From a virus, in the IMG/VR virus record IMGVR_UViG_3300020166_000747: a stretch of DNA of 64,000 bases. The stretch is one strand, 5' to 3'. Positions 7,675 through 26,162 of the stretch are shown here, one piece after another; the first letter of the stretch is position 1, and each line of letters opens with the position of its first letter. A model generated the notes under the pieces. It made no database searches, was not told the origin of the DNA, and saw only the letters and a program-made list of their open reading frames with translations. The position numbers and the translations under genes were made by a program.

Positions 7675-7702
7675 AAAAAGACGCTTTCGAGCGTCTTTTT
7701 TT
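7675..7702. terminator. Bidirectional intrinsic terminator
   Basis: AAAAAGACGCT-TTCG-AGCGTCTTTTTTT between convergent genes. Confidence 0.9.
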
Positions 7703-7707
7703 ATGGT

Positions 7708-8940
7708 TTATTTTATTGTTCTAGTGTTGCCGTAATGCTCTACTATAACACCGCTAACAGCATTGAACTTTCTCCATGGGTCAACTACAATTGAACGTTC
7801 TGGAATATCACAATACAATGCATCTTTGTGTGAATTACCAGTGTACTCATACGTAGTAGATGCACTGTGCGCCATTAAAAATACTGCTGGGCCTGTTGAT
7901 GTTCTGTCATCATCTGTCATAGGGTCTACATACTCAACATCAATACCACACTCATTAATATACGTTGCAATCAACATACTATAACTTCCCTCTAAGTATG
8001 GGACATTTGGCTTATATGCCTTACCATGAATAACGATAGGTAGATTGTTTTCATTCGCATGTTTCATTAATCTTAACGCAATATTCTTAGCTTGTATCTC
8101 TCTTGCATTCATAATAGCATCAAACATATCATACCCCAAGTCTAGCTCTTCTGCCATATAACGTAACGCAATGTTATCACGTGGATGACATCCACCGCCA
8201 TCTCCCATGCCAGCAGTCATATATTGTGGCCCCATGATGCGCATAGTACTGTGTGCTAGTGCATTTGTTACTACGTCTACATTGATATTACCTTGCTTTT
8301 CTGCAACGTCTTGTATCATGTTTACTAGACCAATCTTAGCACTGATGAATGTATTGTAGAATACTTTTATTGCTTCGCATTCATCCCATGTACCAATCTC
8401 ATAACGTGGGTTGTTTTCCATAATTGTTTTATAGAAGTCAGTTAATTGTTTTGCATCTCCGTTGTGATCTCCATCTTCTGTGCCGATCATAACCATTTCT
8501 GGATTAACCATATCATATGCAACACTTCCCATGGCGATCAAGTAAGGGTTATATACGAAGCGTGGGTTAGTGATGTGCTGTACGAAGTGCTTACGGGTCG
8601 TCCCTGGCAGTACTGTGGAGATAAGAACAAGTAGTTGACTATCATTCATATGTTCATTTGCTTCTTTAATAACATCAATAACGATGTCATAGTTGAAGTC
8701 TTTGGGCGCCAAGTGTGCCGTCGGTGCATTACCATCATACATTGGGTCATGTGGGGTTGGTACCGCAACGAATACAATGTCTCGGTCTTTAACTAGTTCT
8801 TGTATAGTAGTAACTACAGTTATGTCATCACTTGTTCTGGGAGAGACATCATACCCCTTAACCTCATGTCCTTTTTGTGCAACTGCTTCTGCACATGGCA
8901 TCCCAAGTTTGCCAACTCCGATAAATCCAATCTTACTCAT
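7708..8940 (-). CDS. ugd: UDP-glucose/GDP-mannose dehydrogenase family protein
   Basis: Rossmann motif GFIGVGKLG, VAVPTP, STVLPG and the catalytic GGGCHPRD. Confidence 0.9.
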   Translation of the reverse strand: MSKIGFIGVGKLGMPCAEAVAQKGHEVKGYDVSPRTSDDITVVTTIQELVKDRDIVFVAVPTPHDPMYDGNAPTAHLAPKDFNYDIVIDVIKEANEHMNDSQLLVLISTVLPGTTRKHFVQHITNPRFVYNPYLIAMGSVAYDMVNPEMVMIGTEDGDHNGDAKQLTDFYKTIMENNPRYEIGTWDECEAIKVFYNTFISAKIGLVNMIQDVAEKQGNINVDVVTNALAHSTMRIMGPQYMTAGMGDGGGCHPRDNIALRYMAEELDLGYDMFDAIMNAREIQAKNIALRLMKHANENNLPIVIHGKAYKPNVPYLEGSYSMLIATYINECGIDVEYVDPMTDDDRTSTGPAVFLMAHSASTTYEYTGNSHKDALYCDIPERSIVVDPWRKFNAVSGVIVEHYGNTRTIK

Positions 8941-9035: not shown

Positions 9036-10361
9036 TCATTTTCGTTCTTCTATGTAAGAAAAATTAATACCGTTACGCTGATATGACGTAATAAGATTAT
9101 TATAATTTTGTTGTAATCGTGCTATGTATGTACCTTCAGAGGTTTTTCTCTTGAAAAAGTTTTGCCCCAATGATAGGTTCACCCGCTTAATCTCATCTCT
9201 CAATTCAAGCAACCTTAATTTAGTATCTTCAGTACTATCATACGAATGTGAAAACACATCGTCGAAGGTATCATATCCTAATTGTTTCAGCGCAGATACA
9301 GTACCGACATCCGCCCACGTTAAAAAGGGCTGACCTAATAGGAATGGTTTAAAACTTTTCTCACTTAGGAACGTAGTATCATTCGTAGCCCATGTCTCGC
9401 ATATAAATTGATAATACGTATCGCTAAGATGATCTATATTGATAGTATTAACTAAATTTATATGCAGGTCTTCGGTTGATTCTTTACCGTTCTGAAGATT
9501 ACCCCACGATAGTACTTCCTTAATTGAATCTGTATATTCAATACCAGTGTAATTTACATACTGATATCGTATAAAGTCGTTGGTAGACTCATTGACATTA
9601 TTTAATTGAACAGTAGTATATTGATCTACCGATCCTCCCCAACTCCATATCATAGTGTCGAGTAAATTTTCTTTATGTAATACTGACATTGCATTAATTC
9701 TATGATCTCTTATTCGTCTATTATAGAATGTGTTCATGTACTTGCGGGTTTCATTTTGGACGAGATCATTTTTATACTTATCTAGGTAAGATTTGATATT
9801 CTGAGGCGTGTGCATTCCAAGACCTGCGCAACTCCGTTCCCAGTAGTTTATCCACATTAATGTAATACCTGATGGGTCTGTTACAGGAGTGTTATAACGA
9901 TAATCGCCGGTTAGAAAAATCACACTACTCGGTTCAACGCCTAATAGTTTTTTAACATAGTTCATGTTTATACTATGATAACCTTCAAGCGCATGAAATA
10001 CCAATACCTTAACTTTACCTGCATTGATCTGTTTCCTAATATTATTAGGAATGTTAAATATTATATTATTCTGAATGAAATATTCATTAAGTTTGTCTGG
10101 ATCATTGTAAATTTCCTCCAATTGCTCCAAATGTGCAACACCTCTAGTCATCTGAGGCGAAATTGCATTCATAGCGAACTGATTAAAGTTTCCCTCAGAA
10201 TAGCACGATATTAAATAATATATCGTATCGTCATCTCCGTGATCAGTATTACGGAACTCTACCTGAGGTAATATAGTTAACGTGCTTAGTTCATCTGAAT
10301 TAACAATGTTATGGGGATAAAATTCTTCTTCTGACTGTACATATAGATATCTATTTGTCAT
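9036..10361 (-). CDS. Putative glycosyltransferase-like protein (paralogue of 4636..5859)
   Basis: Shares LEG, NYWE, YNRR..HR, WSWGG, ET..TFLSEKSFKPF..QPF and HSYD blocks with its paralogue. Confidence 0.5.
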   Translation of the reverse strand: MTNRYLYVQSEEEFYPHNIVNSDELSTLTILPQVEFRNTDHGDDDTIYYLISCYSEGNFNQFAMNAISPQMTRGVAHLEQLEEIYNDPDKLNEYFIQNNIIFNIPNNIRKQINAGKVKVLVFHALEGYHSINMNYVKKLLGVEPSSVIFLTGDYRYNTPVTDPSGITLMWINYWERSCAGLGMHTPQNIKSYLDKYKNDLVQNETRKYMNTFYNRRIRDHRINAMSVLHKENLLDTMIWSWGGSVDQYTTVQLNNVNESTNDFIRYQYVNYTGIEYTDSIKEVLSWGNLQNGKESTEDLHINLVNTINIDHLSDTYYQFICETWATNDTTFLSEKSFKPFLLGQPFLTWADVGTVSALKQLGYDTFDDVFSHSYDSTEDTKLRLLELRDEIKRVNLSLGQNFFKRKTSEGTYIARLQQNYNNLITSYQRNGINFSYIEERK

Positions 10362-11298
10362 TGGTGTATTCCGTCAATAATTGTCCAGCAATAATCTGAT
10401 TTGCAGAAGGCGTCCAATGACCACAAGACAAAAACATATCAGAGACATCAAAGTTGCTTTCTTTGTTCCATACGTTATCGATTGACCCTGACAGGTCTAC
10501 TCGTTTTAGCTTAGATTTCTTTTCTAGTTTTACTAAATTTTCATGAAACCAAGACAGATCCTCAGCACTGTACACTGTATCCAGGATAGGGTCGTTCAGT
10601 AGGTAATAAAAAGGAATATCCAATCCTCGACACATCCAATACATTTGAACAAAATAATTTTCACATTTAATTAAACTATTCAGTGGAGTCGCCCATTCAG
10701 CAAAATATGTCATATATTCTCGCTGGGCTTTGCGTAACACCTGTTTCTGGTTGATGCCCATTGTTTCTTCAGTAACTGGATTCTCAATAGTCTGATTGAA
10801 ACAAAAGGCTTTATTTTCATAAGTATTGTCATATAATATAGGACTATCAATATTATATCTATTATATACGTCAGTATAATTCATATAACTAGCTGAGATA
10901 GTAGAAAAGAATCTATTCAATGGGGCAAGGTTAAAAACAACTGCTTTTGTTTTTTTTGCGTACTCGGAATTAAACCATTGGTTCAAAATCTTCACTGTGT
11001 ATGTATTGTCAGCACCTGGCTGCCCTAAATTTATAAATTTAGTATCGCCGCTCAATTTATTAAGACAGTAATCAATTGTCTGGTGTGGTCCTACGCCATC
11101 ACCGTAAATAAAACTATCTCCGACTAATACTACAATATTTTCATATGAATCTATATCGTCGATATTAGTACGTGATGGCAAGTCACTTGGCCAATGGTCG
11201 TGGGAATGGTTAAAGGGAATTTTCTTTCCTTTGCCATCAAACCATGAAGTATCAGCAAAAGATGAAAATTGAGTATTTTTTATTCTATTATCTGGCAT
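10351..11298 (-). CDS. SGNH/GDSL hydrolase-like protein
   Basis: GDSFIYG, NLGQPGADN and CGHWTP. The start is uncertain (11298 or 11331). Confidence 0.65.
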   Translation of the reverse strand: MPDNRIKNTQFSSFADTSWFDGKGKKIPFNHSHDHWPSDLPSRTNIDDIDSYENIVVLVGDSFIYGDGVGPHQTIDYCLNKLSGDTKFINLGQPGADNTYTVKILNQWFNSEYAKKTKAVVFNLAPLNRFFSTISASYMNYTDVYNRYNIDSPILYDNTYENKAFCFNQTIENPVTEETMGINQKQVLRKAQREYMTYFAEWATPLNSLIKCENYFVQMYWMCRGLDIPFYYLLNDPILDTVYSAEDLSWFHENLVKLEKKSKLKRVDLSGSIDNVWNKESNFDVSDMFLSCGHWTPSANQIIAGQLLTEYTNDK

Positions 11299-11731
11299 AA
11301 TAATCTCCACAATGTCCGTAAATAGGTACATTTATATTTATATTTATATTTATATACACGTGTGGAGTTTCAAAATCTAAGAACACCGACTTTGGTCCAG
11401 GGATCAATACTTTGTGCAATCCCCATATGAAGCCGCCTGACGTGAAAACGTAGTCATCTGCGTCATGCGAAAACATATTTAATTTACTATCACTACCTAG
11501 TATCTCTGCTGATTTCCGATCTTTAAGATGCACGAATACATTAGGCTTATTCACTAGTTCATATTTAAATAATTCCTGAGGCTCATCATGACCGAAATAT
11601 AACTTTCCGTTGTATTCCTGTACATCGACTTCAATACCGAATCCCTGATTATAAGCGTGTTCTAAGTATGCAATCTTGTTCTCTTCTGAAGAAGGACCAG
11701 CAATGTTTCCTCTGTGTGCAATGTAAATCAT
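11288..11731 (-). CDS. Truncated glycerophosphodiester phosphodiesterase (GDPD/PLC-like) protein
   Basis: IAHRGN..EN..GIEVDV..GHD..VHLK. Confidence 0.7.
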   Translation of the reverse strand: MIYIAHRGNIAGPSSEENKIAYLEHAYNQGFGIEVDVQEYNGKLYFGHDEPQELFKYELVNKPNVFVHLKDRKSAEILGSDSKLNMFSHDADDYVFTSGGFIWGLHKVLIPGPKSVFLDFETPHVYININININVPIYGHCGDYYAR

Positions 11732-11758
11732 TTAAAGTCTCCCAATAAATTATAATTC

Positions 11759-12358
11759 TTACAATAATCCATTTAAAATCTCATACGTTTCTTTACTAGA
11801 GTTGACTCTATATACATGGTCTACGTCAGACCGCATTGCGGCTTCATATCCAACATCACTATCCTCAATGATACATGTCTCTGTTTTATTTACGCCAAGC
11901 AGTCGTATTGTTTCGTTGAATATATATGGGTCCGGTTTTCTCTTGTCTATGGGAAGATAGTTCGCAGTTAATACTACTTCAAACATATCTAAGTTGAATT
12001 GGTTCAATACACTGAAAACAAACTTGCTTCTTGCATTGCTTGCTAATGCAACTCGTTTGCGCTTTGATAGCTCACGTAGTTGATCGATTAACATAGTGTC
12101 CATGTGTACAGTGTTTAGGTTCGCATCAGTATAAACTTGTTTTAACTCGTACACAGAACCCGGATCGATACCCTGCGCAAATTTACTATTAATATAGTCA
12201 ATCTTATTGAGTGTCGGGATACCTTCAAGCAAATCTTCTAACTCTGTAGTTATATTGAAGTCGCTAACTTGTGCAACTGCCCAAGAAAATGATTTACGGT
12301 GCAATTGGTTAGCGTCTATTAAAGTTCCATCTAAATCAAATATATAACAATCATGCAT
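11759..12358 (-). CDS. HAD-family phosphatase/phosphomutase
   Basis: FDLDGTL, ASN, KPDP and IEDS motifs. Confidence 0.9.
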   Translation of the reverse strand: MHDCYIFDLDGTLIDANQLHRKSFSWAVAQVSDFNITTELEDLLEGIPTLNKIDYINSKFAQGIDPGSVYELKQVYTDANLNTVHMDTMLIDQLRELSKRKRVALASNARSKFVFSVLNQFNLDMFEVVLTANYLPIDKRKPDPYIFNETIRLLGVNKTETCIIEDSDVGYEAAMRSDVDHVYRVNSSKETYEILNGLL

Positions 12359-13049
12359 CGATATAACCTAAGTAGTCTTTTGGAGTCCCAATGGGGTTGA
12401 AGCTATCTACTTCAAACGCTTTAACTAAATTACCAGATTGTATTATATAATTATACAATGGCGCGATATAGAATTCACCTTCGCTTGTTAGATCAGATGC
12501 TTTGAAGAAATCATATGCTTCCATAAACAACTTACCCGATTGAAAATGATATTGACCAGTGTTTCTAAATTTCGATATAGGTTGTTTCTCTGCTATACCG
12601 TATACCCTCATGTTACTATCCACACAAGAATAGCTACTCTTTTTATCCCATTGACAATGTTCAACTAAGACAATACTACATTCGTTTGTATTTTTTGTAA
12701 ATGCATTAAAGTCTAAATCTAATACAAAGTCACAATCTGCAATTAACCAAGGTTCATTGATGTACTCGCTATCTTTTATAACATACGATGCACTAGTTGC
12801 TGCACCGTCCGTGTAGTAATCAATACTACTAATAATACCGTCTTTATAATTCGGTGAATACTTTTCTATATGCGATTCTTGAAATAGAAAATGATAACGC
12901 ACATCTGCATCATTGTCAATAGATAAACTATCCAATGCGTATGTAAACATTTGCTTACCATTAACGTCTATAAACGGTTTCGGAACATCCGAATAATCTG
13001 CAAAGCGGGAGCCCTTGCCCGCACACAATTGCAATATATTAAGTGTCAT
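12351..13049 (-). CDS. Sugar-phosphate nucleotidyltransferase (GT-A/NTP-transferase)
   Basis: LCAGKGSRF..PKPFI, DCD, EKQ, EFYI and GTP motifs. Confidence 0.85.
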   Translation of the reverse strand: MTLNILQLCAGKGSRFADYSDVPKPFIDVNGKQMFTYALDSLSIDNDADVRYHFLFQESHIEKYSPNYKDGIISSIDYYTDGAATSASYVIKDSEYINEPWLIADCDFVLDLDFNAFTKNTNECSIVLVEHCQWDKKSSYSCVDSNMRVYGIAEKQPISKFRNTGQYHFQSGKLFMEAYDFFKASDLTSEGEFYIAPLYNYIIQSGNLVKAFEVDSFNPIGTPKDYLGYIDA

Positions 13050-13050
13050 A

Positions 13051-14097
13051 CTATGCTTCTAATTCCCTAATAAAGGTTTTGATTTGACTTTCTACATTAT
13101 CACCTGAATGTAACCAGCCGCCCGTGTTTGCTAACCATTGGTTACCAATTTCATCACGTATATTTTTTGCAACATCTGGTGTCATCCCACAGCTTAAAGC
13201 TGCCCAAACATTGTGCTTCTGACACAGTGAAACCGCGTCACGTACTTCTTGGTGGTCGCCTGGATAATAGCCGCCAATCATACCTGCATGAATACTGTCG
13301 ATGCCTTGATAGATTGCTAGTTTTACAATTACTGTCCAATCAATGCCAAATGGATTACTGGGATCTGTGTACGCTCTGATGCCACTTCGTTGGAAGTGAG
13401 TGAATAGGTTGCGTTCATTGCTATCAGCATATGCGCCTAGCCCACTCCAGAAGTTAATGTGTACTCCATCACCTCGATATGCTTTAACTAAATCTAACTG
13501 CTCAATTAGATGTGCAGGATTACCATTAACGCAGTATGTGTATACAGTGTCAGGATGTTGTTCCATAATAGGCTGTATTAATTCTAATCGTCTTTCAAGC
13601 GGTAAATACGCTGGATCTCCAAGTATCTCATCTTCTTTTATAAAGTCTATCCCACCGTTACACATCTGCGTTACAATGTCAACTAACTGCGCGTCAGTTA
13701 ATCCAGCTTTGGGCTTGACGATGCTACCGATTAACGGACGATTGCGTGTCTCGTTAAGTTTCTTAGTTGGTGTTTTTTTAGTAAACGGCTGATTCAGTTC
13801 TATATCTACGATTCTGCATACGTTAATCAACCCGATGTCGCTTTGTCCACCATTAATCGTACATAACATCTGTCCGATATCTTTAAGTGAATGTAGGTTT
13901 CTCCATTTAAAATCGATAACAACTTTGTTATCATCGATTGATATTAGCTCTGCCATACTTTGGATAATACCGGCTGCTGTCTCATATGAACTTCTGATGT
14001 TGGGGTTACCAACACTCTGTCCAATTACAATAGCTTCTGCTGCCTTAGGTATATCAATGCTTTCGACATGATATGTCACTCTATACGAATCGTTCAT
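13051..14097 (-). CDS. RuBisCO-like protein (form IV, RLP)
   Basis: GSIVKPKAGL (K175/K177), GGIDFIKEDE (carbamylated K201-x-D-E), SCG and GG phosphate loops. H294 appears replaced (HFQR) and loop-6 K334 is absent (IGGYY). Confidence 0.85.
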   Translation of the reverse strand: MNDSYRVTYHVESIDIPKAAEAIVIGQSVGNPNIRSSYETAAGIIQSMAELISIDDNKVVIDFKWRNLHSLKDIGQMLCTINGGQSDIGLINVCRIVDIELNQPFTKKTPTKKLNETRNRPLIGSIVKPKAGLTDAQLVDIVTQMCNGGIDFIKEDEILGDPAYLPLERRLELIQPIMEQHPDTVYTYCVNGNPAHLIEQLDLVKAYRGDGVHINFWSGLGAYADSNERNLFTHFQRSGIRAYTDPSNPFGIDWTVIVKLAIYQGIDSIHAGMIGGYYPGDHQEVRDAVSLCQKHNVWAALSCGMTPDVAKNIRDEIGNQWLANTGGWLHSGDNVESQIKTFIRELEA

Positions 14098-14124
14098 ATT
14101 TACCTCTGTTAGTTATGTATGTAC

Positions 14125-14832
14125 TTATTTATACTCTTTAATACATGCATCAATATATTGCGCAATTAATTTATGTCCAGTTTCATCTGGGTGTCCCGAC
14201 CTCTTGAGATTAAAATCACTCAGGTCGTATCTAGAATTCGCATGCCAGTGCCAATCTGATGATGAAATGTCCTTTATTTTTCCGTCGGTTGCAACGTCAA
14301 GTAATGTTCTATCAGCAAAAACCATTCGATCAACACTATTATGAACTTTATTATCATAGAATGCATTAACATTGATGATTGGGATATCTTTAGCTAACCA
14401 ATGTGCAGTGCATAATTCATTATAAAATGTATCTATAAATTCATCATCTGCCAATGTTTTTGTCACAGACACAAAACGATCATGTGTATTGGTTTCTAAC
14501 TCCCAATCACAACGCCTGTTGGATGCTCTAAATTGTGAGGTCCATGCTAGAATTATTATATCAATAGTAGTATCCATTGTCAAGCGATCATGTAATATTT
14601 CTAATATTTGCCTATTAGACACGCCAGACTGACTTAGATTTTCTACCTGGTATTCACCGCTAAGAGATAGTATAGTTGACCACCGATGAGTGTCTACATA
14701 CGCATGATTTTTTTCACACTTTACAGTAAAATCCGGACCGTATTTTGTTATAGCTTCTTCTTCTGTACAAATAGAACGGTCCCATAATTCAGCGCCCCAT
14801 GTCCAACTATCACCTATACATAATACTTTCAC
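14125..14832 (-). CDS. SGNH/GDSL hydrolase-like protein
   Basis: GDSWTWG, NLSQSGVSN and GHPDETGHKLIA. Confidence 0.75.
   Translation of the reverse strand: MKVLCIGDSWTWGAELWDRSICTEEEAITKYGPDFTVKCEKNHAYVDTHRWSTILSLSGEYQVENLSQSGVSNRQILEILHDRLTMDTTIDIIILAWTSQFRASNRRCDWELETNTHDRFVSVTKTLADDEFIDTFYNELCTAHWLAKDIPIINVNAFYDNKVHNSVDRMVFADRTLLDVATDGKIKDISSSDWHWHANSRYDLSDFNLKRSGHPDETGHKLIAQYIDACIKEYK
14126..14133 (-). promoter_or_regulatory. T4-type late promoter for the RLP operon
   Basis: Perfect TATAAATA on the minus strand, 28 nt upstream of the RLP ATG, with a GAGG RBS between. Confidence 0.6.
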
Positions 14833-15155
14833 TCAACTACTACCTTATCGTTAAATCCTAAGCTAGGTGTTTTAACGCATACGATATGACATTCTTCTAA
14901 CAACTCTACAATCGTTACTTCCTTAGGATCAAATATGAATATGTCACCTGGTCCTAATGTTTCTCCGTTTGCAATTAAACTGCCAACAAGCAACAGATTG
15001 TACTCAGTAGATAACTCCTGATAATGTTTCTCTGGTGTATCTTCTTTCTTGTGAATTTGAAATCCAACTTCAAATTCTTCAGTTTTTAAAATTGCAGGTT
15101 CAAAGTTTCCTATGAACCACCCTCTTGTAAAGTTTTCAATACGTTCTCGTTTCAT
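14829..15155 (-). CDS. Cupin-domain protein (possible sugar epimerase/isomerase)
   Basis: GWFIGNFEP..HYQ..TEYN..GDIFI..VCVKTPS. Confidence 0.7.
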   Translation of the reverse strand: MKRERIENFTRGWFIGNFEPAILKTEEFEVGFQIHKKEDTPEKHYQELSTEYNLLLVGSLIANGETLGPGDIFIFDPKEVTIVELLEECHIVCVKTPSLGFNDKVVVE

Positions 15156-15227: not shown

Positions 15228-16166
15228 ATGAAAATTGGCGTATTATTAATGGGACAGGTTAGAAATTTTGACGTAACGACAGAATTTCTAAAAAAAGAAT
15301 TTGACTTGCCGGGAGTAGATGTAGACTATTTCTGCCATACGTGGGACTCAGTTGTTAATTTTTCACCATGGAATAATATGAAAACAACTGACGAAAGATT
15401 TTCTGATTTGCAGATGCATGATCAAGGCAAACTCATGGACACTATTAGCCTTATTAATCCAAAAAAATCCATTATAGAAAGTTATGACAAATTAGAAGAA
15501 ATTTTTGATACAATTTATCACCCAGAATACAAAAATGAGACAACCAATGTTGTACATGACAAATTTTTAGGATGTGGTTGGGCGGCTTTTGACAGTGATA
15601 GCACTCTCAAGTTCTCTGATTGGAATTACTATTTCAGTCTATTAGGTCAATTTTATAGTACTAGCCGGGCATTAGATTTGCTTTGTGAGTATGAAAGAGA
15701 AGTTGGAATAAAATATGATGTCATTGTGCGTTGGCGTTATGATTTGGTATCGAACACTCATTACCGAGATACTGATGCCCGTGTTAACCAATGGTGTGTT
15801 AACCCAATGAAACATGAACACGGAGATACTATATTCTTTAATTCTTTAAGTATCTGGCGGGGCATGCAATGCGCTACTGATCATATGTGGTTTGGGGCGG
15901 CTGGTGCATTTAAGAGTTATACCGCAAACTTTGATCAAAAATATATTAGTTTGGTTCGTGCAAAAATAATGAACAACAAGACAGTACTCAATGAAAACGC
16001 AGTACAAGATATTATTATTAATCAGAAGATGTCTTCTAAAGAATCCAGTATGGGATTAGCGGTCGTAAGACCTGGCGCAACTAAAGAAATGTCGTTTGAC
16101 GAATTATATGATTTGGAAATCGCACATGAAGCGCAAAAACGATCATTAGCATTGAGGAGTCAATAA
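15228..16166 (+). CDS. Putative GT-A-like glycan biosynthesis protein
   Basis: MKIGVLLMGQVR..FCHTWD..GQFYS..YDVIVRWRYD; paralogue of the next gene. Confidence 0.5.
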   Translation: MKIGVLLMGQVRNFDVTTEFLKKEFDLPGVDVDYFCHTWDSVVNFSPWNNMKTTDERFSDLQMHDQGKLMDTISLINPKKSIIESYDKLEEIFDTIYHPEYKNETTNVVHDKFLGCGWAAFDSDSTLKFSDWNYYFSLLGQFYSTSRALDLLCEYEREVGIKYDVIVRWRYDLVSNTHYRDTDARVNQWCVNPMKHEHGDTIFFNSLSIWRGMQCATDHMWFGAAGAFKSYTANFDQKYISLVRAKIMNNKTVLNENAVQDIIINQKMSSKESSMGLAVVRPGATKEMSFDELYDLEIAHEAQKRSLALRSQ

Positions 16167-16999
16167 TGAAGATAGCATTAGCATTTTTTGGACAGCCGAG
16201 AGGCATAGACAATGATATGATTATCGAACAATGGTTAAGGATACTAAGAGATTCTTCGGAAACTTGCACTTTTGACGTGTATGCTCATTTTTGGGATAAC
16301 CAAAGTAATACTAAAATTTCAGATACATATGAAGAATTTGTTAAAGAAACCCAAGTTGATGCTAACACACATTTTGACAAATTTATAAAGGCATTTAGAC
16401 CGAAACAACTACACATTGAGCCTTCAAACGTACTAGATAAATTATCTAGTTTGTATTTTAGCAATAATGAATATGTAAACGCACGAGTTGATCCGGCTAT
16501 TCCAAGTACTGGACGAGCGACTATTGGCCAATGGTATAGCACCGAACGGGTACTGGACCAGGTTATTAATAGCGGAGTAGAATATGATATAGTCATCAGA
16601 ATCAGACCAGATATAATATTCGAACAGACCGAAAGCCATCATAGATTTTTTGAATTTTCGCTAATAAACCATTTTAAGGCATGTGCTGTCGGTAACAGAT
16701 GTATTGGTGTTCCTTCTATAGAAATAAAATCAGGAACTCCGATTCTGAATGATTGGTGGACGGTTATGTACGGAGGTTTTGTTGAAGAGTTTAAAACAAA
16801 CTTAACAAAAAATATATCATCGCAAATCAATGCAATATTTACAACTTTAGATACACCAAATAGTATACAAGAAAATGCACTACACCGACATTGCATCAAA
16901 CTTGACATCAACGCAGTTTCAACAAAAGCTGAGGCGAGAATTTATAGAAAAGAAGAAGGAACTTGGGTATGGCCTAATTACTTAGTAGATAGCAAATAG
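16166..16999 (+). CDS. Putative GT-A-like glycan biosynthesis protein
   Basis: MKIALAFFGQPR..YAHFWD..GQWYS..YDIVIRIRPD; coupled to the previous gene by TAATG. Confidence 0.5.
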   Translation: MKIALAFFGQPRGIDNDMIIEQWLRILRDSSETCTFDVYAHFWDNQSNTKISDTYEEFVKETQVDANTHFDKFIKAFRPKQLHIEPSNVLDKLSSLYFSNNEYVNARVDPAIPSTGRATIGQWYSTERVLDQVINSGVEYDIVIRIRPDIIFEQTESHHRFFEFSLINHFKACAVGNRCIGVPSIEIKSGTPILNDWWTVMYGGFVEEFKTNLTKNISSQINAIFTTLDTPNSIQENALHRHCIKLDINAVSTKAEARIYRKEEGTWVWPNYLVDSK

Positions 17000-17004: not shown

Positions 17005-18228
17005 CTACGTGTGATACTTAGTCTTAACACTGTCCCACGTACTTTGCATTTCTGCATTAGTATCTTTTCCACAGAAAATTGAACAAGTGCGTAAGCGTTT
17101 ATTTCTTACATTGTTATCGTTAAAGTTTTCGACATATTTTTCTTGGAACATTGGACCATCAATTATATCTTTCAGTGTAACATGGCGAAGAGAAATTTTA
17201 TCTTTACCATAATCATTGATAAACGATTTTAATTGTGATGTTTCTTCATTATCATATGCATAATACTTGCTTGCAGTGAAGCAACAGGGCCATACTAATC
17301 CTTCACTACTGACAAAGAAACTATCGGATTTCAAAACTAGACAATCAATTTTTGTAGAACCTAAATCTTTTTCCCATTGGGTCAATGGTCTAGTGTTATC
17401 CATTTTAAATGGCTTCGGAATATACTTAGGCCTATGTTCCTCTAACTTAAAAGTTTTTAATGCGTGTTTCGATTCTACATCCTCGCCGTCAACCTTGTTA
17501 AACGTTGTCTTACTAATATAATCCTTGATGACATTATTTTGCCAGCGACCTTCCATTGGAGGTTCAAGTACATAATCTAACTGTCCAGTTTCATTAAACA
17601 CATGCATTGCCGGAGTAGCCACTCTATCCGTATCACTATTGACAAATCCGAGTGCCTTTTTATGAAAGAAGTGATCAAACCCCATTTCTTTAGCTAGTGC
17701 CTCTGCTTCAGTAACTTGATGTTGATTGTGCTTGAATACTAAATAATCCCAACGTGCAGTTCCGCCAGCCCCTATATAATTTTTGGCTGCGGACATAATC
17801 TTATGCCAGTGAGTCCCACGACGATAGATATGGTTCGTATCTTCTAACCCATCGATACTAAAAGTAACATGCCCGTTACTACCGACAAGCCTACCTAAAT
17901 CCTGCCAGAACTTTTCATTACGTCCACTTGCATTAGTATTCATAGTCACTTTGATGTTTGGATTCAATTCCTTTGTGTACTCTAGAATTGAAATCAATTC
18001 TGGGTTTGTCATCGCATCGCCATAATTACCACAGAAAGAAATAGAAAATAATCTAGAGATTAATTCAACTGGGAACCATTTTTTGTATTGTTCTAACGTA
18101 ACATACGTTTCTGTAAACATCGGATTCTTTATACCGCCGGATTGTCGTCTGTTACAAACCGGACATAATGCGTTACACAAGCTGCTCACTTCTAAGTCCA
18201 AATGTTGTAGTCTGTCATATGTATACAT
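17005..18228 (-). CDS. Radical SAM protein with C-terminal SPASM/Twitch domain
   Basis: CNALCPVC, FCGNYGD, FSIDG and C-terminal C..GLVWPCC..CSIFC. Confidence 0.9.
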   Translation of the reverse strand: MYTYDRLQHLDLEVSSLCNALCPVCNRRQSGGIKNPMFTETYVTLEQYKKWFPVELISRLFSISFCGNYGDAMTNPELISILEYTKELNPNIKVTMNTNASGRNEKFWQDLGRLVGSNGHVTFSIDGLEDTNHIYRRGTHWHKIMSAAKNYIGAGGTARWDYLVFKHNQHQVTEAEALAKEMGFDHFFHKKALGFVNSDTDRVATPAMHVFNETGQLDYVLEPPMEGRWQNNVIKDYISKTTFNKVDGEDVESKHALKTFKLEEHRPKYIPKPFKMDNTRPLTQWEKDLGSTKIDCLVLKSDSFFVSSEGLVWPCCFTASKYYAYDNEETSQLKSFINDYGKDKISLRHVTLKDIIDGPMFQEKYVENFNDNNVRNKRLRTCSIFCGKDTNAEMQSTWDSVKTKYHT

Positions 18229-18230
18229 AA

Positions 18231-19421
18231 TTAATGTATCCTCTTAAATTCTGGTAAATAATCGCCGATAACTTGGTTACGTATCGTATCTAAGTTACGA
18301 GTGTATTCTTTTGCTTGTTCCCATTTCTCTGGTTTATCAGGTCCACCGAACATGTTTTTAAATTCTTTTAATTTGTAATCTTCAAATACATTACTAAATC
18401 GTTCATGTATGCTATCACGCATAGCTTTAGGTAATGCTGCAGGGGATAGAATGTCTGGATCATACACATAGTTATGATGAACCCATACTCCATGTTCTCT
18501 ATGGAAGAAGTTATAAAAGTCTCCTAGAGTAGAGTAGTTCATCCATGATACAGTTTGCGTTACATCAATTTCAAAGTCTTCTTCCTTAATACGTAAGAAG
18601 TTCTTCATAACAGTGTCCCATTTAGTTGGGTATCGAATGTAATGATTTCTATCACCTAGGTCGTCGATGCTACAACTAATCTTCACATGATCGAACTTTC
18701 TCCATAACTCTATCACTTCTTCACTCATTAGCGTCATGTTGATATTGTACCACAGTTTGATATCTGTTTTACCCATATCAACTAAACGCTCTAAGAACTT
18801 AAAGTGTTCTTTGATTAGTGTTGGTTCTCCACCATTAATATAGAATGTCTTTACTCTGTCGCAATGCTGTAGTAAGTCATTCCAGAACTCTTCACGTTCA
18901 GGCCATCTAAAGCCTTCCATCGTGTCATAGCTTGTGAGTTTGAATGTTGTACTGCTTTGTAGTTTGTCGTAATCGTTACGCCATTTAGATGATGATGCTG
19001 GATTACAAGTACGACATGCAACATTGCAAACATTACCTAATCTAAGCTCAACGAAATCGAGTTGTACATCTTTCATGTAGCCAGTATCGTCAGTGGCGTC
19101 CCTAGCGACTCCTACAGTGTACTCAGGATAGTTCTTAATCTCTTCTAACCGTTTGCTTTGCATACCTTTTGCTTCTTCCGAGTAACAACGCATACATGCC
19201 TTAGGCTTCTTTCCATCAAGTACTTGTACTCTTGCTTTGCGGAATGACTCGCTATTCATCGTTTCGAATACGGTATCTCTGTTGAGATTATAATAACGTC
19301 GATCACCATCTTTCGCACTACTAAGTGCTTGTCTGTGATCCGCAATACAGCAATGCGTCACACCCCCATGAGGATGTGTCGCTAGGTGTTGAAATAGTAA
19401 TGGGCAGAATGTATCAGTCAT
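18231..19421 (-). CDS. Radical SAM protein with N-terminal Twitch domain
   Basis: FCP..THCC..CMRC, then CNVACRTC and NGGEP. Confidence 0.9.
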   Translation of the reverse strand: MTDTFCPLLFQHLATHPHGGVTHCCIADHRQALSSAKDGDRRYYNLNRDTVFETMNSESFRKARVQVLDGKKPKACMRCYSEEAKGMQSKRLEEIKNYPEYTVGVARDATDDTGYMKDVQLDFVELRLGNVCNVACRTCNPASSSKWRNDYDKLQSSTTFKLTSYDTMEGFRWPEREEFWNDLLQHCDRVKTFYINGGEPTLIKEHFKFLERLVDMGKTDIKLWYNINMTLMSEEVIELWRKFDHVKISCSIDDLGDRNHYIRYPTKWDTVMKNFLRIKEEDFEIDVTQTVSWMNYSTLGDFYNFFHREHGVWVHHNYVYDPDILSPAALPKAMRDSIHERFSNVFEDYKLKEFKNMFGGPDKPEKWEQAKEYTRNLDTIRNQVIGDYLPEFKRIH

Positions 19422-20697
19422 TATCTATTTGCCCGTGTACATACGCAGATAACTCAGGGTATACCGCTCTCCAATCTAAGTTTCTACGTTGATCCATCTT
19501 GTCGGAGTATGAAACGAATTCTCGTAACATTTCTAAATCAGGTTCATTACTTTCGATTGCTTTATAATATCCCGTTAACATATCAAATTCTTTAGTATCG
19601 GGGTTAACCAAATCTATTAGTTTTTGCAAGTCCGGTAACACGTAACTTCCAAACTTAGTTGGATCTAAAAATGGTGGGTTTTGAATAATGTTCCAGCTTT
19701 GTTCAATCTCTTTATCGTAACGTAGTTGATAGTCCAATACTTTTTGTCGTAATTCCCAATTAGTAGGCGTGGTCAGCGGACAAATTGTACTATGTACTTG
19801 AACTGTAATGCCATCTAATTCCATTAGTGTATTGAAGTTCTCTTCCCATTGCTCCAAGTCTATCCCGTAACGTGAATATTCTTGTTCAGGTCCCCATGCA
19901 TCAATACTACATACAACAATCCAATTGTCAATTTTCCCAGTAGCGATCATTTTTTGAATCCTTGCAAGTTTCTGTTTGAACAGGCGAGGTTTATGCATCA
20001 AATTACTAAACATCTTTATACCGATATTAGAATTATCATTCTCCGATTCTTCAAAGAATGATAAACATTCCTCGAACTCTTCTTTCTGATACAGTGGTTC
20101 GCCACCTAAAATATGAAACATTTTAATTTTGTGTGAATGTTCGTGCATCCATTCCCAGAACTCACCCTTGCGCTTTTCGTATCTATTTGAACTTGAGAAA
20201 TTACCATCAAGACTATAGTACTTACTAGCAGGACCATACTTTTTAATCTCTGCTTCAATTTTACTACTAAATTGCGGTGTGCAATATGTACATGCTAGAT
20301 TACATGTATTCTTAAAGTATACCTCAACACAGGTAGGAGTCACTTCGTCTTGTAATTCGTTGTTTTCAGAATACATAATTTCATGCGGATTCCAATTATT
20401 CATCGGAGTGAAAACCTGTCTTTCACTCTTGCCGCCGGAATCTTCGACACGTTTGCAGTATTGGCAACTGTCCTTAGGCCACTTCCCATCAACCATGCGC
20501 TTGCGTTCTTCAACTAATTTCGGATGCTTGTTAAAATCTTTAAAATTATCGTCCGGCGATAGATTAAATCCGCCGGTTCGGTGACACATATTGATTTGGT
20601 CAAGACTTAGATATAATGTTAACCAACTCCATTTTAACGCACACGCTGCCTCATTCTGAATAGGGAACATTCTTCCTGATTTATTTTCTTCCATCAA
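19414..20697 (-). CDS. Radical SAM protein with N-terminal Twitch domain
   Basis: ACALKW..MCH..CQYC, then CNLACTYC and LGGEP. Confidence 0.9.
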   Translation of the reverse strand: MMEENKSGRMFPIQNEAACALKWSWLTLYLSLDQINMCHRTGGFNLSPDDNFKDFNKHPKLVEERKRMVDGKWPKDSCQYCKRVEDSGGKSERQVFTPMNNWNPHEIMYSENNELQDEVTPTCVEVYFKNTCNLACTYCTPQFSSKIEAEIKKYGPASKYYSLDGNFSSSNRYEKRKGEFWEWMHEHSHKIKMFHILGGEPLYQKEEFEECLSFFEESENDNSNIGIKMFSNLMHKPRLFKQKLARIQKMIATGKIDNWIVVCSIDAWGPEQEYSRYGIDLEQWEENFNTLMELDGITVQVHSTICPLTTPTNWELRQKVLDYQLRYDKEIEQSWNIIQNPPFLDPTKFGSYVLPDLQKLIDLVNPDTKEFDMLTGYYKAIESNEPDLEMLREFVSYSDKMDQRRNLDWRAVYPELSAYVHGQIDND

Positions 20698-22081
20698 ATC
20701 GTCTCCACCAAAGATACAGTTCTGTATCTAATTTGTAAATATCTTCTAGCCGATATTGTTCTTGTCTAATCTGGTCAAGTCTATCTTGATATCCTTTACC
20801 ATTCTTAAACTCTTGTTCGTGTGTATCTGGCCATTGTTCTGCAAATGTCGGACGTTTCTTCATTTCATGTAGAGTGTTAATAAGTGTCTCTTGCTTTTGT
20901 GTACCACGTGGTTCCATATATGCTAATAACTCATCAATTTTTCTGTCAAGAATATGACGTGGCCACGCAAACGGTGACATAACAATATCAGCATGAAATG
21001 CAAACATGATTTTTGTTTCCATGCGCACATCTAATTCTAGTGATAAGTCAAACAAATCTTTTAATGAGAACATGCCTGGACCTGTGATAGTCAAGTCAAA
21101 TAGCATTTTATGCTTACCACCAGGTGCTGCCAGTCCTTGCTTGAAGTTATCTAGCCATTCTTCCCATACGATACCCTTACGAATAAACTCTACAATATCA
21201 CCAGTACCATCGATAGATGCGCACATTAACCAGTCTTTAAACTGTGGTAGATAATCAAATAGATTTTTACCTTTGAAGTCTACACGTGATAGATTAGAAT
21301 TATAACGCAAATAACAGTTCTTTGCAGAACCGTTGTTTACCATTTCTTCTAATGCCCACCAATGCATATCATACATAAGAGGTTCGCCGCCGACCCAATA
21401 GATTTCTTCTACTATGCCGTCACTAATTGCTTTCTTGAACTCAGGTTCAGCAACGTCTTTCTGAAACTTTTGCATTTTCTGTTTAACAGTAGGTTGCATA
21501 AAGGGCTGATTTTCAATACTCCACATGTCGTGTTTCTTCTTTTCAGCTTCCCATGCACTTGATAATTGCTCACCGCACATACGACACTTGAAGTTGCACA
21601 AGTTTGAATAACGATAGTCAAAGGAAATTACTGGCATTTCTGTACGCCCATCATCATCTGTCTTATCAAATGCTTCTTGTATCTTATCTTTGAATAGTAC
21701 ACCTGTGAACCATTTGCGATACGAACTTAGTGATAGAGTGTCATCATTACACACATCACATTGTGGAATGCGCTCTCCTGCCATTAGCTTCTTACGAATG
21801 TCACGCATGTAAGGAGAGTTCCAATGTTCTTCTAGCGTTGTTGGATTAAAGTCATCAACGTCAGTTTTAGAATCTGTTACTTCCCCATACTTTGAATCAT
21901 TTGATGCATCGATATACTGCTTTTGAAAAGAGTGTTCTTCACGTGATGCACAACACATTCTACGTTCACCTTGTGGCGAGATATAAGTATGTGACCACGG
22001 TGCCATACAGAAAGTTTTGTTTTCACTTTCTTCAGCACAACTTGCATCATCTTTCCAGATTGGTACGATTCGTTTAGTCAA
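20681..22081 (-). CDS. Radical SAM protein with N-terminal Twitch domain
   Basis: FCMAPW..MCC..CDVC, then CNFKCRMC and VGGEP. Confidence 0.9.
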   Translation of the reverse strand: MTKRIVPIWKDDASCAEESENKTFCMAPWSHTYISPQGERRMCCASREEHSFQKQYIDASNDSKYGEVTDSKTDVDDFNPTTLEEHWNSPYMRDIRKKLMAGERIPQCDVCNDDTLSLSSYRKWFTGVLFKDKIQEAFDKTDDDGRTEMPVISFDYRYSNLCNFKCRMCGEQLSSAWEAEKKKHDMWSIENQPFMQPTVKQKMQKFQKDVAEPEFKKAISDGIVEEIYWVGGEPLMYDMHWWALEEMVNNGSAKNCYLRYNSNLSRVDFKGKNLFDYLPQFKDWLMCASIDGTGDIVEFIRKGIVWEEWLDNFKQGLAAPGGKHKMLFDLTITGPGMFSLKDLFDLSLELDVRMETKIMFAFHADIVMSPFAWPRHILDRKIDELLAYMEPRGTQKQETLINTLHEMKKRPTFAEQWPDTHEQEFKNGKGYQDRLDQIRQEQYRLEDIYKLDTELYLWWRRFDGRK

Positions 22082-26160: not shown

Positions 26161-26162
26161 TC

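What the first reader, a model, noticed from the sequence alone, without database searches (positions are those of the whole stretch)
11288..15155. Phage RuBisCO-like protein in a sugar-nucleotide operon
Seen: cupin, SGNH, RLP, nucleotidyltransferase, HAD and GDPD-like genes are tightly coupled on one strand, with a perfect TATAAATA before the RLP. The RLP keeps K175/K177 and K201-x-D-E but appears to lack H294 and K334 and is short (348 aa). Known: characterised RLPs do enolisation, isomerisation or (trans/de)carboxylation in methionine salvage and in catabolism of branched sugar acids such as apionate, not CO2 fixation. Inference: this RLP works biosynthetically, making an unusual (possibly branched) sugar phosphate that is then NDP-activated, which is a role I do not know to be established.
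Basis: partly seen in the sequence, partly recalled or inferred. Interest (0 to 1): 0.82.

Follow-up and report, generated by a model that had tools for sequence, protein, structure and literature searches.

The report
Phage RuBisCO-like enzyme in sugar-activation cassette
A jumbo phage carries a shortened RuBisCO relative that cannot fix CO2 and that, in phages, bacteria and archaea alike, sits beside or is fused to a sugar-activating enzyme, which points to an untested sugar-building role for the RuBisCO fold.

Summary
Window 11288-15155 (minus strand) holds six tightly coupled genes: cupin, SGNH-like, a 348-aa RuBisCO-like protein (RLP), a sugar-1-P nucleotidyltransferase (NTPT), a HAD and a miniature GDPD-like phosphodiesterase.

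The RLP keeps the Mg/carbamate core (K175, K177, K201, D203, E204) and both phosphate sites. It has lost E60, N123, H294, H298, K334 and the C-terminal tail, so it is not a carboxylase.

Its link to the NTPT is close to obligate:
- NTPT lies within 3 kb of the RLP in 78/81 viral-type and 42/46 cellular loci. Six of the seven exceptions are cut off at or lie close to contig ends.
- Natural fusions exist in both orders (NTPT-RLP, RLP-NTPT), plus an RLP-NTPT-cupin triple fusion.
- The HAD link is not conserved.
- Nothing supports a "branched" sugar.

The clade is distinct from MtnW, OiaX-like RLPs and form III RuBisCO. It also occurs in SAR11, Legionella, CPR and DPANN genomes, in glycan gene clusters.

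The clade itself was reported by Jaffe et al. 2019 with function unknown. I found no paper describing the NTPT coupling.

This scan has already reported the same module on other DNA (72 notes in at least 44 genomes). I reached the same reading independently before seeing those notes.

The substrate and the chemistry remain unknown.

The parts
14829..15155 (-). orf108: small Cupin_2-type protein (isomerase-like); first gene of the unit
   Evidence: Family profile A2 against PDB gives 9e-9 (quercetinase cupin) and 2.4e-7 (7zvm, a 113-aa 'mannose-6-phosphate isomerase'). Atlas neighbours are cupins. phrog_24762. Present in 44/81 viral-type and 13/46 cellular loci, and fused to the NTPT in 6 loci.
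14125..14832 (-). orf235: SGNH/GDSL-like protein (motif level only)
   Evidence: GDS block I near the N terminus and an HPDETGH-like block near the C terminus. No Pfam, NCBIfam, PHROG or PDB sequence hit. A family of 32 members in 15 loci.
14555..14583 (-). Perfect sigma70 consensus (TTGACA-17-TATAAT, with a TG extended -10) inside orf235, pointing at the RLP
   Evidence: The window has 3 perfect sites against 0.14 expected, and 0 of 100 shuffles reach 3. The other two lie just upstream of operon starts. Function is inferred.
14126..14133 (-). TATAAATA (T4 late-promoter-like box) 28 nt upstream of the RLP ATG, followed by a GAGG ribosome-binding site
   Evidence: The motif count in the window equals chance, so this is a candidate only.
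13051..14097 (-). RuBisCO-like protein, 348 aa, of the NTPT-linked 'IV-like' clade
   Evidence: Pfam RuBisCO_large 7.4e-26. AF2 model pLDDT 89, TM 0.86 to form III. Active-site map. Clade support SH-aLRT 100.
12351..13049 (-). Sugar-1-phosphate nucleotidyltransferase (NTPT), the obligate partner of the RLP
   Evidence: NCBIfam AglF 1.3e-12, archaeal GlmU, HddC. Family profile against 4evw 5e-38, GDP-mannose pyrophosphorylases 1.8e-12. Within 3 kb of the RLP in 120/127 loci. Fused to the RLP in at least 12 protein clusters.
11759..12358 (-). HAD-IA hydrolase of the beta-phosphoglucomutase family (mutase or sugar phosphatase); an accessory gene specific to this lineage
   Evidence: HAD_2 5.3e-19; TIGR02009 1.4e-22 at 80.8 bits, below the 153 cutoff. 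Recurs only in L057 (as a HAD-NTPT fusion) and L081.
11288..11731 (-). orf147: miniature GDPD-like phosphodiesterase
   Evidence: Invariant HRG, E-x-D, GHD, H, K and D columns. Profile against GDPD 7e0v 1.1e-4, N-terminal ~50 residues only. phrog_34507. Present in 32/81 viral-type and 26/46 cellular loci. Replaced by a full-length Pfam GDPD in several DPANN loci.
10351..11331 (-). orf326: second GDS-motif (SGNH-like?) protein, overlaps orf147 by 44 nt
   Evidence: GDS block read. No database hit.
9036..10361 (-). orf441: unknown protein in the same transcription unit
   Evidence: No Pfam, NCBIfam, PHROG or PDB hit. Weak relatives in 4 loci.
7708..8940 (-). UDP-glucose/GDP-mannose dehydrogenase-family enzyme; last gene of the unit
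   Evidence: Pfam UDPG_MGDP_dh N, central and C domains. 49-50% identical homologues lie 3.5-4 kb from the RLP in L042 and L044-L048.
7675..7700 (.). Bidirectional intrinsic terminator closing the unit
   Evidence: 11-bp stem with T runs on both strands.
15228..16999 (+). orf312 and orf277: divergent pair of GT-A-fold transferase-like proteins (phrog_13607)
   Evidence: The family occurs in 59/81 viral-type loci (56/80 by BLAST clustering). AF2 model pLDDT 75. All Foldseek hits are GT-A glycosyltransferases such as BoGT6a, but TM is only ~0.4. PHROG hits.

Best explanation
The 348-aa protein is a catalytically competent but non-carboxylating RuBisCO-like enzyme. It works as one unit with the adjacent sugar-1-phosphate nucleotidyltransferase, and usually also with a small cupin and a mini-phosphodiesterase, to make an unusual nucleotide-activated sugar.

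Proposed mechanism. Only the residue inventory is shown; the reaction and every step below are inferred.
1. Using the retained carbamylated-lysine/Mg2+ centre, the RLP enolises a phosphorylated ketose or keto-sugar bound through the two retained phosphate sites. It releases an isomer or epimer, without CO2 addition or C-C cleavage.
2. The cupin performs an aldose-ketose type isomerisation, as the cupin domain does in AlgA/ManC-type PMI-GMP enzymes.
3. A mutase or phosphatase sets the 1-phosphate. In this phage that would be the beta-PGM-family HAD; elsewhere probably a host enzyme.
4. The NTPT makes the NDP-sugar.
5. Neighbouring GT-A-type transferases, the UDP-sugar dehydrogenase, SGNH-like enzymes and the adjacent radical-SAM/GT island would then use and tailor it for a glycan made during infection.
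For: Near-obligate linkage:
- NTPT lies within 3 kb of the RLP in 78/81 viral-type and 42/46 cellular loci, in several gene orders and on both strands.
- Six of the seven exceptions are cut off at or lie close to contig ends.

Rosetta-stone fusions:
- NTPT-RLP of 634-651 aa, RLP-NTPT of 664-667 aa, and RLP-NTPT-Cupin_2 of 813-817 aa, in at least 12 protein clusters on different contigs.
- NTPT-cupin fusions in 6 loci and one HAD-NTPT fusion.

Catalytic core kept and invariant across the family:
- K128, K130, K154, D156, E157, R/K237, H270, S302, G304 and G326-G327, equivalent to K175, K177, K201, D203, E204, R295, H327, S379, G381 and G403/404.
- Residues needed for carboxylation and cleavage are replaced by other invariant residues (G26, G84, Q236, Y277).

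Partner identities:
- The NTPT is of the glycosyl-1-phosphate type: 4evw 5e-38, GDP-mannose pyrophosphorylases 1e-12, GlmU, HddC and RmlA. Phospho-alcohol cytidylyltransferases reach only ~1e-3.
- The cupin resembles Cupin_2 / M6P-isomerase proteins.

Biosynthetic glycan context:
- GT-A-like family in 59/81 viral-type loci.
- GT25, GT8 and methyltransferases.
- GT2, SDR epimerase/dehydratase and WavE in cellular loci.
- GT9 and a CMP-sugar-type cytidylyltransferase in Pelagibacter.
- UDP-sugar dehydrogenase in the window.
Against: - No substrate, product or activity is known for any member of the clade.
- The order of steps is not established. The RLP could act after NDP activation.
- The C1 phosphate of a ketose, which is what RuBisCO-type sites bind, is not a glycosyl phosphate. 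A direct RLP-to-NTPT hand-off therefore needs either extra steps or a non-classical NTPT substrate.
- The mutase/phosphatase step has no conserved gene. The HAD is rare.
- A LicD phosphotransferase in Legionellaceae and the recurrent GDPD-type phosphodiesterase hint instead at phosphodiester (phospho-sugar or polyol) chemistry.
- The GT-A assignment of orf312 rests on low TM scores (~0.4).
- One cellular locus with full flanks (L094) has the RLP without an NTPT.
Confidence: 0.6

Rival explanations
1. Activated phospho-sugar or phospho-polyol donor. The RLP product keeps a non-anomeric phosphate. The NTPT converts it to an NDP-linked (CDP-ribitol-like or CDP-choline-like) donor. A phosphotransferase adds the phospho-unit to a glycan through a phosphodiester, and the GDPD-type enzyme edits or recycles that linkage.
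For: - RuBisCO-type active sites bind a C1 phosphate ester next to a carbonyl (established knowledge). Direct RLP-NTPT fusions suggest consecutive steps.
- A LicD-family phosphotransferase lies divergently next to RLP-NTPT in four Legionellaceae loci.
- A GDPD-type phosphodiesterase accompanies the module in 58 of 127 loci. It is a full-length Pfam GDPD in several DPANN loci.
Against: - The NTPT profile is much closer to glycosyl-1-phosphate enzymes (1e-12 to 5e-38) than to IspD, IPCT or PntC-type phospho-alcohol enzymes (~1e-3 to 1e-6).
- LicD is confined to Legionellaceae.
- GT-A, GT2 and SDR neighbours are typical of NDP-glycosyl chemistry.
Confidence: 0.17
2. The RLP acts after activation. 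It tailors an NDP-keto-sugar by enolisation-driven epimerisation or keto-isomerisation, with the diphosphate occupying one phosphate site.
For: - Fusions occur in both orders, so they do not fix the order of steps.
- SDR epimerase/dehydratase genes that make NDP-4-keto sugars lie directly after the RLP in several SAR11 loci.
- Cupins are common NDP-keto-sugar epimerases and isomerases (established knowledge).
Against: - No SDR dehydratase is conserved across the family (9 of 46 cellular loci; none found in the window unit).
- The cupin profile matches Cupin_2/PMI-type rather than RmlC/FdtA-type structures.
- No RuBisCO-superfamily enzyme is known to bind a nucleotide (my own knowledge).
Confidence: 0.12
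3. Auxiliary metabolic gene for salvage or central carbon metabolism: methionine salvage (MtnW-like), the pentose-bisphosphate/AMP pathway, or CO2 fixation, boosting host metabolism during infection.
For: - Membership in the RuBisCO superfamily, with form III enzymes as the nearest solved structures.
- Jaffe et al. 2019 raised host-metabolism augmentation as a possibility (PMC6389311).
Against: - E60, N123, H294, H298 and K334 are replaced, and the C-terminal tail is missing.
- NCBIfam scores are 5- to 13-fold below every equivalog cutoff.
- The clade is separate from form III, OiaX-like and MtnW-like sequences.
- No mtnK/mtnA, e2b2/AMP phosphorylase, PRK or small-subunit genes were found next to it in the window or in the loci annotated.
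Confidence: 0.04
4. Non-catalytic partner: the RLP is a pseudoenzyme that scaffolds or regulates the nucleotidyltransferase.
For: Obligate pairing and fusion with the NTPT. Several canonical catalytic residues are lost.
Against: The Mg/carbamate triad, K175/K177 and both phosphate sites are invariant across phages, bacteria and archaea down to ~30% identity. The replaced positions are themselves invariant (G26, G84, Q236, Y277). That is the pattern of a remodelled active site, not a decayed one.
Confidence: 0.04

Closest known systems
'Form IV-like' RuBisCO-related proteins of phages and Beckwithbacteria (Jaffe, Castelle, Dupont & Banfield 2019, Mol Biol Evol 36:435; PMC6389311)
   Same: Divergent RLPs on Myoviridae-type and huge-phage scaffolds from many environments. 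They lack several catalytic residues and group with a Beckwithbacteria sequence outside the other RLPs. In my tree a Beckwithbacteria MAG sequence (L093) falls inside the same SH-aLRT-100 clade as the window's protein.
   Different: That paper left the function open and did not report the gene neighbourhood. Here I show near-obligate linkage and fusion to a nucleotidyltransferase, the cupin and mini-GDPD partners, and presence in SAR11, Legionella, Azospirillum and DPANN genomes. I could not compare directly with their sequences.
Characterised RLPs: MtnW/YkrW DK-MTP-1-P enolase, R. rubrum 5-methylthioribulose-1-P isomerase, OiaX/OiaC of apionate catabolism
   Same: Same fold. All use the carbamylated lysine/Mg2+ centre for enolisation-type chemistry on a phosphorylated keto-sugar without net CO2 fixation (established knowledge). 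OiaX is the best NCBIfam hit.
   Different: - Scores are far below the cutoffs: OiaX 78.7 vs 700, MtnW 38-51 vs 409-514.
- Separate clade.
- 50-80 residues shorter.
- Different substitutions at N123, H294 and K334.
- Biosynthetic glycan context rather than salvage or catabolism.
Class II bifunctional PMI-GMP enzymes (AlgA/ManC/XanB type: NTP_transferase domain plus C-terminal cupin isomerase)
   Same: The NTPT-cupin pairing, and in 6 loci a fusion in the same N-to-C order. The NTPT profile hits GDP-mannose pyrophosphorylases, and the cupin profile hits a 113-aa 'mannose-6-phosphate isomerase'.
   Different: About 350 aa rather than ~480. There is no Pfam MannoseP_isomer hit. The unit has an additional obligate RLP partner. 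Substrates are unknown.
GDP-heptose pathway (GmhA, HddA, GmhB, HddC) and phage-encoded NDP-sugar cassettes
   Same: An isomerase, a HAD phosphatase acting on a sugar bisphosphate and an HddC-type NTPT give an NDP-sugar for surface glycans. HddC is among the nearest solved relatives of the NTPT.
   Different: There is no kinase and no SIS isomerase. An RLP takes a place that no known NDP-sugar pathway has.

Membership tests
RuBisCO large-subunit superfamily (PF00016) | N-terminal alpha/beta domain plus C-terminal TIM barrel with significant profile similarity | tested here: met
   Pfam 7.4e-26 at 91.5 bits against a cutoff of 30.1. AF2 model pLDDT 89. Foldseek E 8e-24, TM 0.86 to 2d69.
Bona fide RuBisCO (forms I-III) | Complete catalytic set including E60, N123, H294 and K334 (loop 6) | tested here: not met
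   E60->G26, N123->G84, H294->Q236, H298->I240, K334->Y277, and the C-terminal tail is absent. TIGR03326 scores 68.7 bits against a cutoff of 497.
Bona fide RuBisCO (forms I-III) | Carbamylatable K201 with Mg ligands D203/E204, plus K175 and K177 | tested here: met
   K154, D156, E157, K128 and K130 are invariant in the family.
MtnW / YkrW DK-MTP-1-P enolase | Score above the equivalog cutoff and grouping with MtnW | tested here: not met
   TIGR03332 scores 38.2 against 513.6; PRK09549 scores 51.1 against 409. The MtnW-like representative P0246 lies outside the clade.
MtnW / YkrW DK-MTP-1-P enolase | Methionine-salvage gene neighbourhood | tested here: not met
   Neighbours in the window and in the annotated loci are NTPT, cupin, GDPD, GTs, SDR enzymes and methyltransferases.
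OiaX / OiaC apionate-pathway RLPs | Score above the equivalog cutoff and grouping with that clade | tested here: not met
   NF042437 scores 78.7 against 700. OiaX-like representatives P0196 and P0170 and the second Azospirillum RLP form a different clade.
Phage/Beckwithbacteria 'IV-like' RLP clade (Jaffe 2019) | Encoded on myovirus-type or huge-phage contigs | tested here: met
   T4-like baseplate genes in the window. 331 IMG/VR contigs encode relatives, several of 200-518 kb.
Phage/Beckwithbacteria 'IV-like' RLP clade (Jaffe 2019) | Monophyletic with Beckwithbacteria sequences, apart from other RLPs | tested here: met
   A 56-row clade with SH-aLRT 100 that includes the Beckwithbacteria MAG locus L093.
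Sugar-1-phosphate nucleotidyltransferase (RmlA/GlmU-N/GMPP type), for the NTPT | N-terminal G-x-G-(S/T)-R NTP-binding loop and full-length profile similarity | tested here: met
   G11, G13 and R15 are nearly invariant. 4evw 5e-38 over the full length; GMPPB 1.8e-12. The single-sequence Pfam hit is below cutoff.
GDPD (PF03009), for orf147 | Catalytic HRG, E-x-D and HD motifs | tested here: met
   Invariant H6, R7, G8, E34, D36, H48 and D49. Aligned to GDPD 7e0v.
GDPD (PF03009), for orf147 | Full ~240-residue TIM-barrel domain scoring above the Pfam threshold | tested here: not met
   147 aa, no Pfam hit, and only ~50 residues align. Full-length GDPD occupies the same slot in some DPANN loci.
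Beta-phosphoglucomutase family HAD, for 11759-12358 | Score above the TIGR02009/TIGR01990 cutoffs | tested here: not met
   80.8 against 153 and 61.9 against 189. It is a HAD-IA hydrolase (HAD_2 5e-19), but mutase and phosphatase cannot be told apart.
SGNH hydrolase, for orf235 | Blocks I, II, III and V with profile similarity | tested here: inconclusive
   Block I GDS and a block V-like motif are seen. No Pfam, NCBIfam or PDB hit.

The most novel reading that the evidence does not exclude
The RLP is the committed enzyme of an undescribed nucleotide-sugar pathway. It uses the RuBisCO enolisation machinery to convert a common ketose (bis)phosphate into a rare sugar phosphate, possibly rearranged or branched, or even directly into the phosphate ester that the fused nucleotidyltransferase activates. 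That would be the first biosynthetic, glycan-building role for the RuBisCO fold. It would operate in SAR11, Legionella, CPR/DPANN cells and hundreds of phages, and so shape the surface sugars that decide phage-host recognition in the ocean.
Probability: 0.4. Interest if true: 0.85.

Novelty: new variant of a known kind. Interest (0 to 1): 0.66.

Why it matters
Every characterised RuBisCO-like protein works in salvage or catabolism. An RLP locked to, and often fused with, an NDP-sugar pyrophosphorylase would extend the superfamily into glycan biosynthesis and would define a new activated sugar.

The module is widespread. Relatives are encoded on 331 IMG/VR contigs, and it is also present in SAR11, Legionella and the reduced CPR and DPANN lineages. 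Its product may therefore be a common but unrecognised component of microbial surfaces, and of what phages do to them.

The hypothesis can be tested directly with a handful of recombinant proteins. Natural fusion enzymes and cultured Legionella carriers give convenient starting points.

Tried and rejected
- No whole genome is held for this window.
- blastn of the region and tblastn of the RLP against 50,697 deposited phage genomes: no match. The RLP also has no PHROG. No record in those collections carries it.
- Single-sequence Pfam and NCBIfam gave nothing for orf108, orf147, orf235, orf326, orf441, orf312 or orf277. Profiles were needed.
- PDB sequence searches for orf235, orf326, orf441 and a small orf312 profile found nothing significant.
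- The first fusion found (P0133) lies on one 2.5-kb contig with no DNA available. I therefore did not rely on it until the 'longer' search found 12 more fused clusters.
- LicD as a general partner: rejected, because it occurs only in four Legionellaceae loci.
- HAD as a conserved partner: rejected.
- TATAAATA as statistical evidence for a promoter: rejected, because its count equals chance.
- Control-genome RuBisCOs could not be fetched as loci. Outgroup clades were labelled by NCBIfam scores instead.
- The tree is midpoint-rooted and built with the quick method, so I draw no conclusion about the direction of transfer between cells and phages.
- Literature searches for a functional description of the viral, SAR11 or Legionella RLPs found none.

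Full report
**What is there**

The window is part of a large myovirus-type phage. It encodes a T4-like baseplate wedge (phrog_10646, 1.6e-242), a baseplate hub/lysozyme, a virion-associated endolysin and an SbcC-like nuclease. GC content is about 37%. No whole genome is held for it.

Between 15155 and 7708 on the minus strand, nine genes follow each other with overlaps or gaps of at most 95 nt. A bidirectional terminator at 7675-7700 closes the unit. The finding's interval, 11288-15155, covers the first six genes.

**Gene identities**

- 13051-14097 is a RuBisCO large-subunit homologue: Pfam 7.4e-26. Its nearest solved sequences are archaeal form III/II-III enzymes and a Burkholderia RLP, at about 20% identity.
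- An AlphaFold model built on 21 family members has pLDDT 89. It superposes on form III RuBisCO with TM 0.86. It is therefore a complete but compact N-domain plus TIM barrel.
- 12351-13049 is a sugar-1-phosphate nucleotidyltransferase. NCBIfam gives AglF, archaeal GlmU and HddC-type hits.
- A 27-member profile of that NTPT matches the NDP-sugar pyrophosphorylase 4evw at 5e-38 over its whole length. It then matches GDP-mannose pyrophosphorylases (1.8e-12), GlmU, HddC and RmlA. Phospho-alcohol cytidylyltransferases appear only near 1e-3.
- 11759-12358 is a HAD-IA hydrolase of the beta-phosphoglucomutase family, scoring below the family cutoffs.
- 14829-15155 has no Pfam hit by itself. Its family profile hits Cupin_2 structures, including a 113-aa 'mannose-6-phosphate isomerase' (9e-9 to 2e-7). 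The protein atlas also places it among cupins.
- 11288-11731 is a virus-rich family with invariant HRG, E-x-D and GHD motifs. These motifs align to the catalytic N-terminus of glycerophosphodiester phosphodiesterases (1e-4). It is a 147-aa miniature of a ~240-aa domain.
- 14125-14832 and 10351-11331 carry GDS motifs, but nothing else supports an SGNH assignment.
- 9036-10361 is unknown.
- 7708-8940 is a UDP-glucose/GDP-mannose dehydrogenase-family enzyme.

**Active site**

I aligned the protein with a bona fide form III RuBisCO (P0211: 468 bits on TIGR03326, and over the PRK04208 cutoff). The equivalences are as follows (consistent).

- Kept, and invariant or nearly so across the family: K175, K177, K201, D203, E204, R295 (R or K), H327, S379, G381 and G403/G404.
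- Replaced: E60->G26, T65->N31, W66->P32, N123->G84, H294->Q236, H298->I240, K334->Y277.
- The C-terminal tail that closes over loop 6 is absent.

From established RuBisCO enzymology, the retained set is what is needed for carbamate/Mg2+-assisted enolisation and for binding two phosphate (or anionic) groups. The lost set is what is needed for CO2 addition, hydration and C2-C3 cleavage. The replaced positions are themselves invariant, which indicates a remodelled active site rather than a decayed one.

**Promoters**

The TATAAATA box is real: 14126-14133, 28 nt before the ATG, followed by a GAGG ribosome-binding site. Its count in the window equals chance, 8 against 8.75 expected.

A perfect extended sigma70 consensus at 14555-14583, inside orf235 and pointing at the RLP, is more striking. 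The window has three such sites against 0.14 expected, and the other two lie just upstream of operon starts.

**The family and its partners**

- The RLP has about 1,900 relatives of 330-400 aa in the 90% non-redundant protein set.
- In the exhaustive search they form about 25 clusters at 50% identity, after which scores fall sharply into the rest of the superfamily.
- IMG/VR holds 331 viral contigs encoding a relative, and I fetched 80 loci.
- The GTDB species genomes gave 46 loci. They include a complete Pelagibacter chromosome, many SAR11 single-cell genomes and three cultured Legionella species. They also include Azospirillum oleiclasticum, Turneriella, Verrucomicrobia, CPR bacteria (Beckwithbacteria, Saccharibacteria) and DPANN archaea.

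With family HMMs, the NTPT lies within 3 kb of the RLP in 78 of 81 viral-type loci and 42 of 46 cellular loci. It occurs upstream, downstream or divergent. Six of the seven exceptions are cut off at, or lie close to, a contig end; only L094 lacks it with full flanks.

Other partners:

| Partner | Viral-type loci (of 81) | Cellular loci (of 46) |
|---|---|---|
| Cupin | 44 | 13 |
| Mini-GDPD | 32 | 26 |
| GT-A-like orf312 family | 59 | 10 |

By tblastn, the HAD recurs only in L057, where it is fused to the NTPT, and in L081.

**Fusions**

A search restricted to longer proteins found 13 fused forms, and the exhaustive search added one more.

- NTPT-RLP, 634-651 aa.
- RLP-NTPT, 664-667 aa.
- Two proteins of ~815 aa in which the RLP is followed by an NTPT domain. 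In one of them (P0277) a Cupin_2 domain follows as well.

Six viral loci have NTPT-cupin fusions of ~350 aa. This is the domain order of AlgA/ManC-type PMI-GMP enzymes.

Locus L081, which carries an NTPT-RLP fusion, also encodes homologues of the cupin, the HAD (fused to a methyltransferase) and the mini-GDPD. It has WavE-like proteins as well.

Fusion in both orders, across many clusters and contigs, is strong evidence that the RLP, the NTPT and the cupin act in one pathway.

**Context**

- Recurrent viral neighbours are GT25 and GT8 transferases, SAM methyltransferases and the orf312 family. The orf312 model matches only GT-A glycosyltransferases, but weakly (TM ~0.4).
- Recurrent cellular neighbours are GT2 transferases, GDP-mannose-dehydratase-like SDR enzymes and WavE. 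There are also full-length GDPD (in the slot of the mini-GDPD) and B12-radical-SAM enzymes.
- In Pelagibacter the pair lies between a GT9 heptosyltransferase, a 2-hydroxyacid dehydrogenase and a CMP-sugar-type cytidylyltransferase.
- In Legionella nautarum the pair is divergent from a LicD phosphotransferase. This holds only in Legionellaceae.
- No kinase, aldolase, methionine-salvage or pentose-bisphosphate gene recurs.

**Phylogeny**

A maximum-likelihood tree of 118 sequences places all viral and cellular family members in one clade of 56 rows with SH-aLRT 100. The window's protein sits in a viral subclade of 18 rows (100).

Legionella/Azospirillum, DPANN, CPR and SAR11 sequences branch nearer the base. 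The root is only a midpoint, so no direction of transfer is claimed.

Outgroup clades were labelled by NCBIfam as bona fide form III (P0211), OiaX-like (P0196, P0170, together with the second Azospirillum RLP) and MtnW-like (P0246). The window's protein scores 38-79 bits on these models, against cutoffs of 409-700.

**What is known**

Jaffe et al. 2019 (PMC6389311) already reported about 80 phage 'IV-like' RLPs on Myoviridae and huge-phage scaffolds. They clustered with Beckwithbacteria sequences, and their function was left unclear.

Searches of the held literature found no paper that assigns a function or notes the nucleotidyltransferase link.

Within this scan the same module has been reported many times on other DNA: 72 notes in at least 44 genomes. 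I read those notes after completing the analysis above, and they agree with it.

**Interpretation**

- Shown: the residue inventory, the linkage, the fusions and the glycan context.
- Inferred: that the RLP enolises or isomerises a phosphorylated keto-sugar, that the cupin isomerises, that the HAD (here) or a host enzyme sets the 1-phosphate, and that the NTPT then makes an NDP-sugar used by neighbouring transferases.
- Main open alternatives: a CDP-polyol-like phospho-donor (hinted at by LicD and the GDPD partners), or RLP action on an NDP-keto-sugar after activation.
- A salvage, carbon-fixing or purely structural role is unlikely.
- Nothing speaks for or against a branched sugar.

Noticed in passing
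window 14555-14583 (-): A perfect extended sigma70 consensus promoter lies inside the coding sequence of orf235, about 460 nt upstream of the RLP. It is one of only three perfect sites in the window (0.14 expected). The other two, at 28860-28888(-) and 54499-54527(+), lie just upstream of operon starts.
   Followed up: partly
window 11335-11354 (-): Three overlapping TATAAATA copies (an ATAAAT repeat) lie just upstream of the orf326 start, inside the 3' end of orf147.
   Followed up: no
protein P0267 (metagenomic, 583 aa): A TIR domain is fused to a full RuBisCO large subunit (TIR_2 at 3-134, RuBisCO_N and RuBisCO_large at 160-572). This is an unexpected pairing that could belong to a defence or signalling system.
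   Followed up: no
proteins P0169 and P0225 (726 and 742 aa): IF-2B-family (ribose-1,5-bisphosphate isomerase-type) domains are fused to form III-like RuBisCO. This looks like a single-polypeptide version of two steps of the pentose-bisphosphate pathway.
   Followed up: no
L001:9028-9729 and L001:10449-11216; also L009: Some phage loci carry two NTPT paralogues near the RLP. One is orthologous to the window's (57% identity); the second is only ~15% identical.
   Followed up: partly
L094 (uncultured bacterium MAG, 66-kb contig): This is the only locus with full 6-kb flanks in which the RLP has no detectable NTPT, cupin or GDPD neighbour.
   Followed up: no
L128, L131, L133 (Azospirillum oleiclasticum): One genome carries three superfamily members: a 444-bit bona fide RuBisCO, an OiaX-like RLP and the NTPT-linked RLP. 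It could serve as a cultured organism for separating the three functions.
   Followed up: partly
window 17005-28835 (-): Directly upstream lies an island of six radical-SAM enzymes with SPASM/twitch-type domains and several transferase-like genes. Homologues of the radical-SAM genes recur in 15 of the 80 RLP loci, so the two islands may serve one glycan pathway.
   Followed up: partly
window 31607-40594 (-): A 2,995-aa ORF next to the baseplate wedge gene is probably a giant tail fibre or structural protein. I did not examine it.
   Followed up: no
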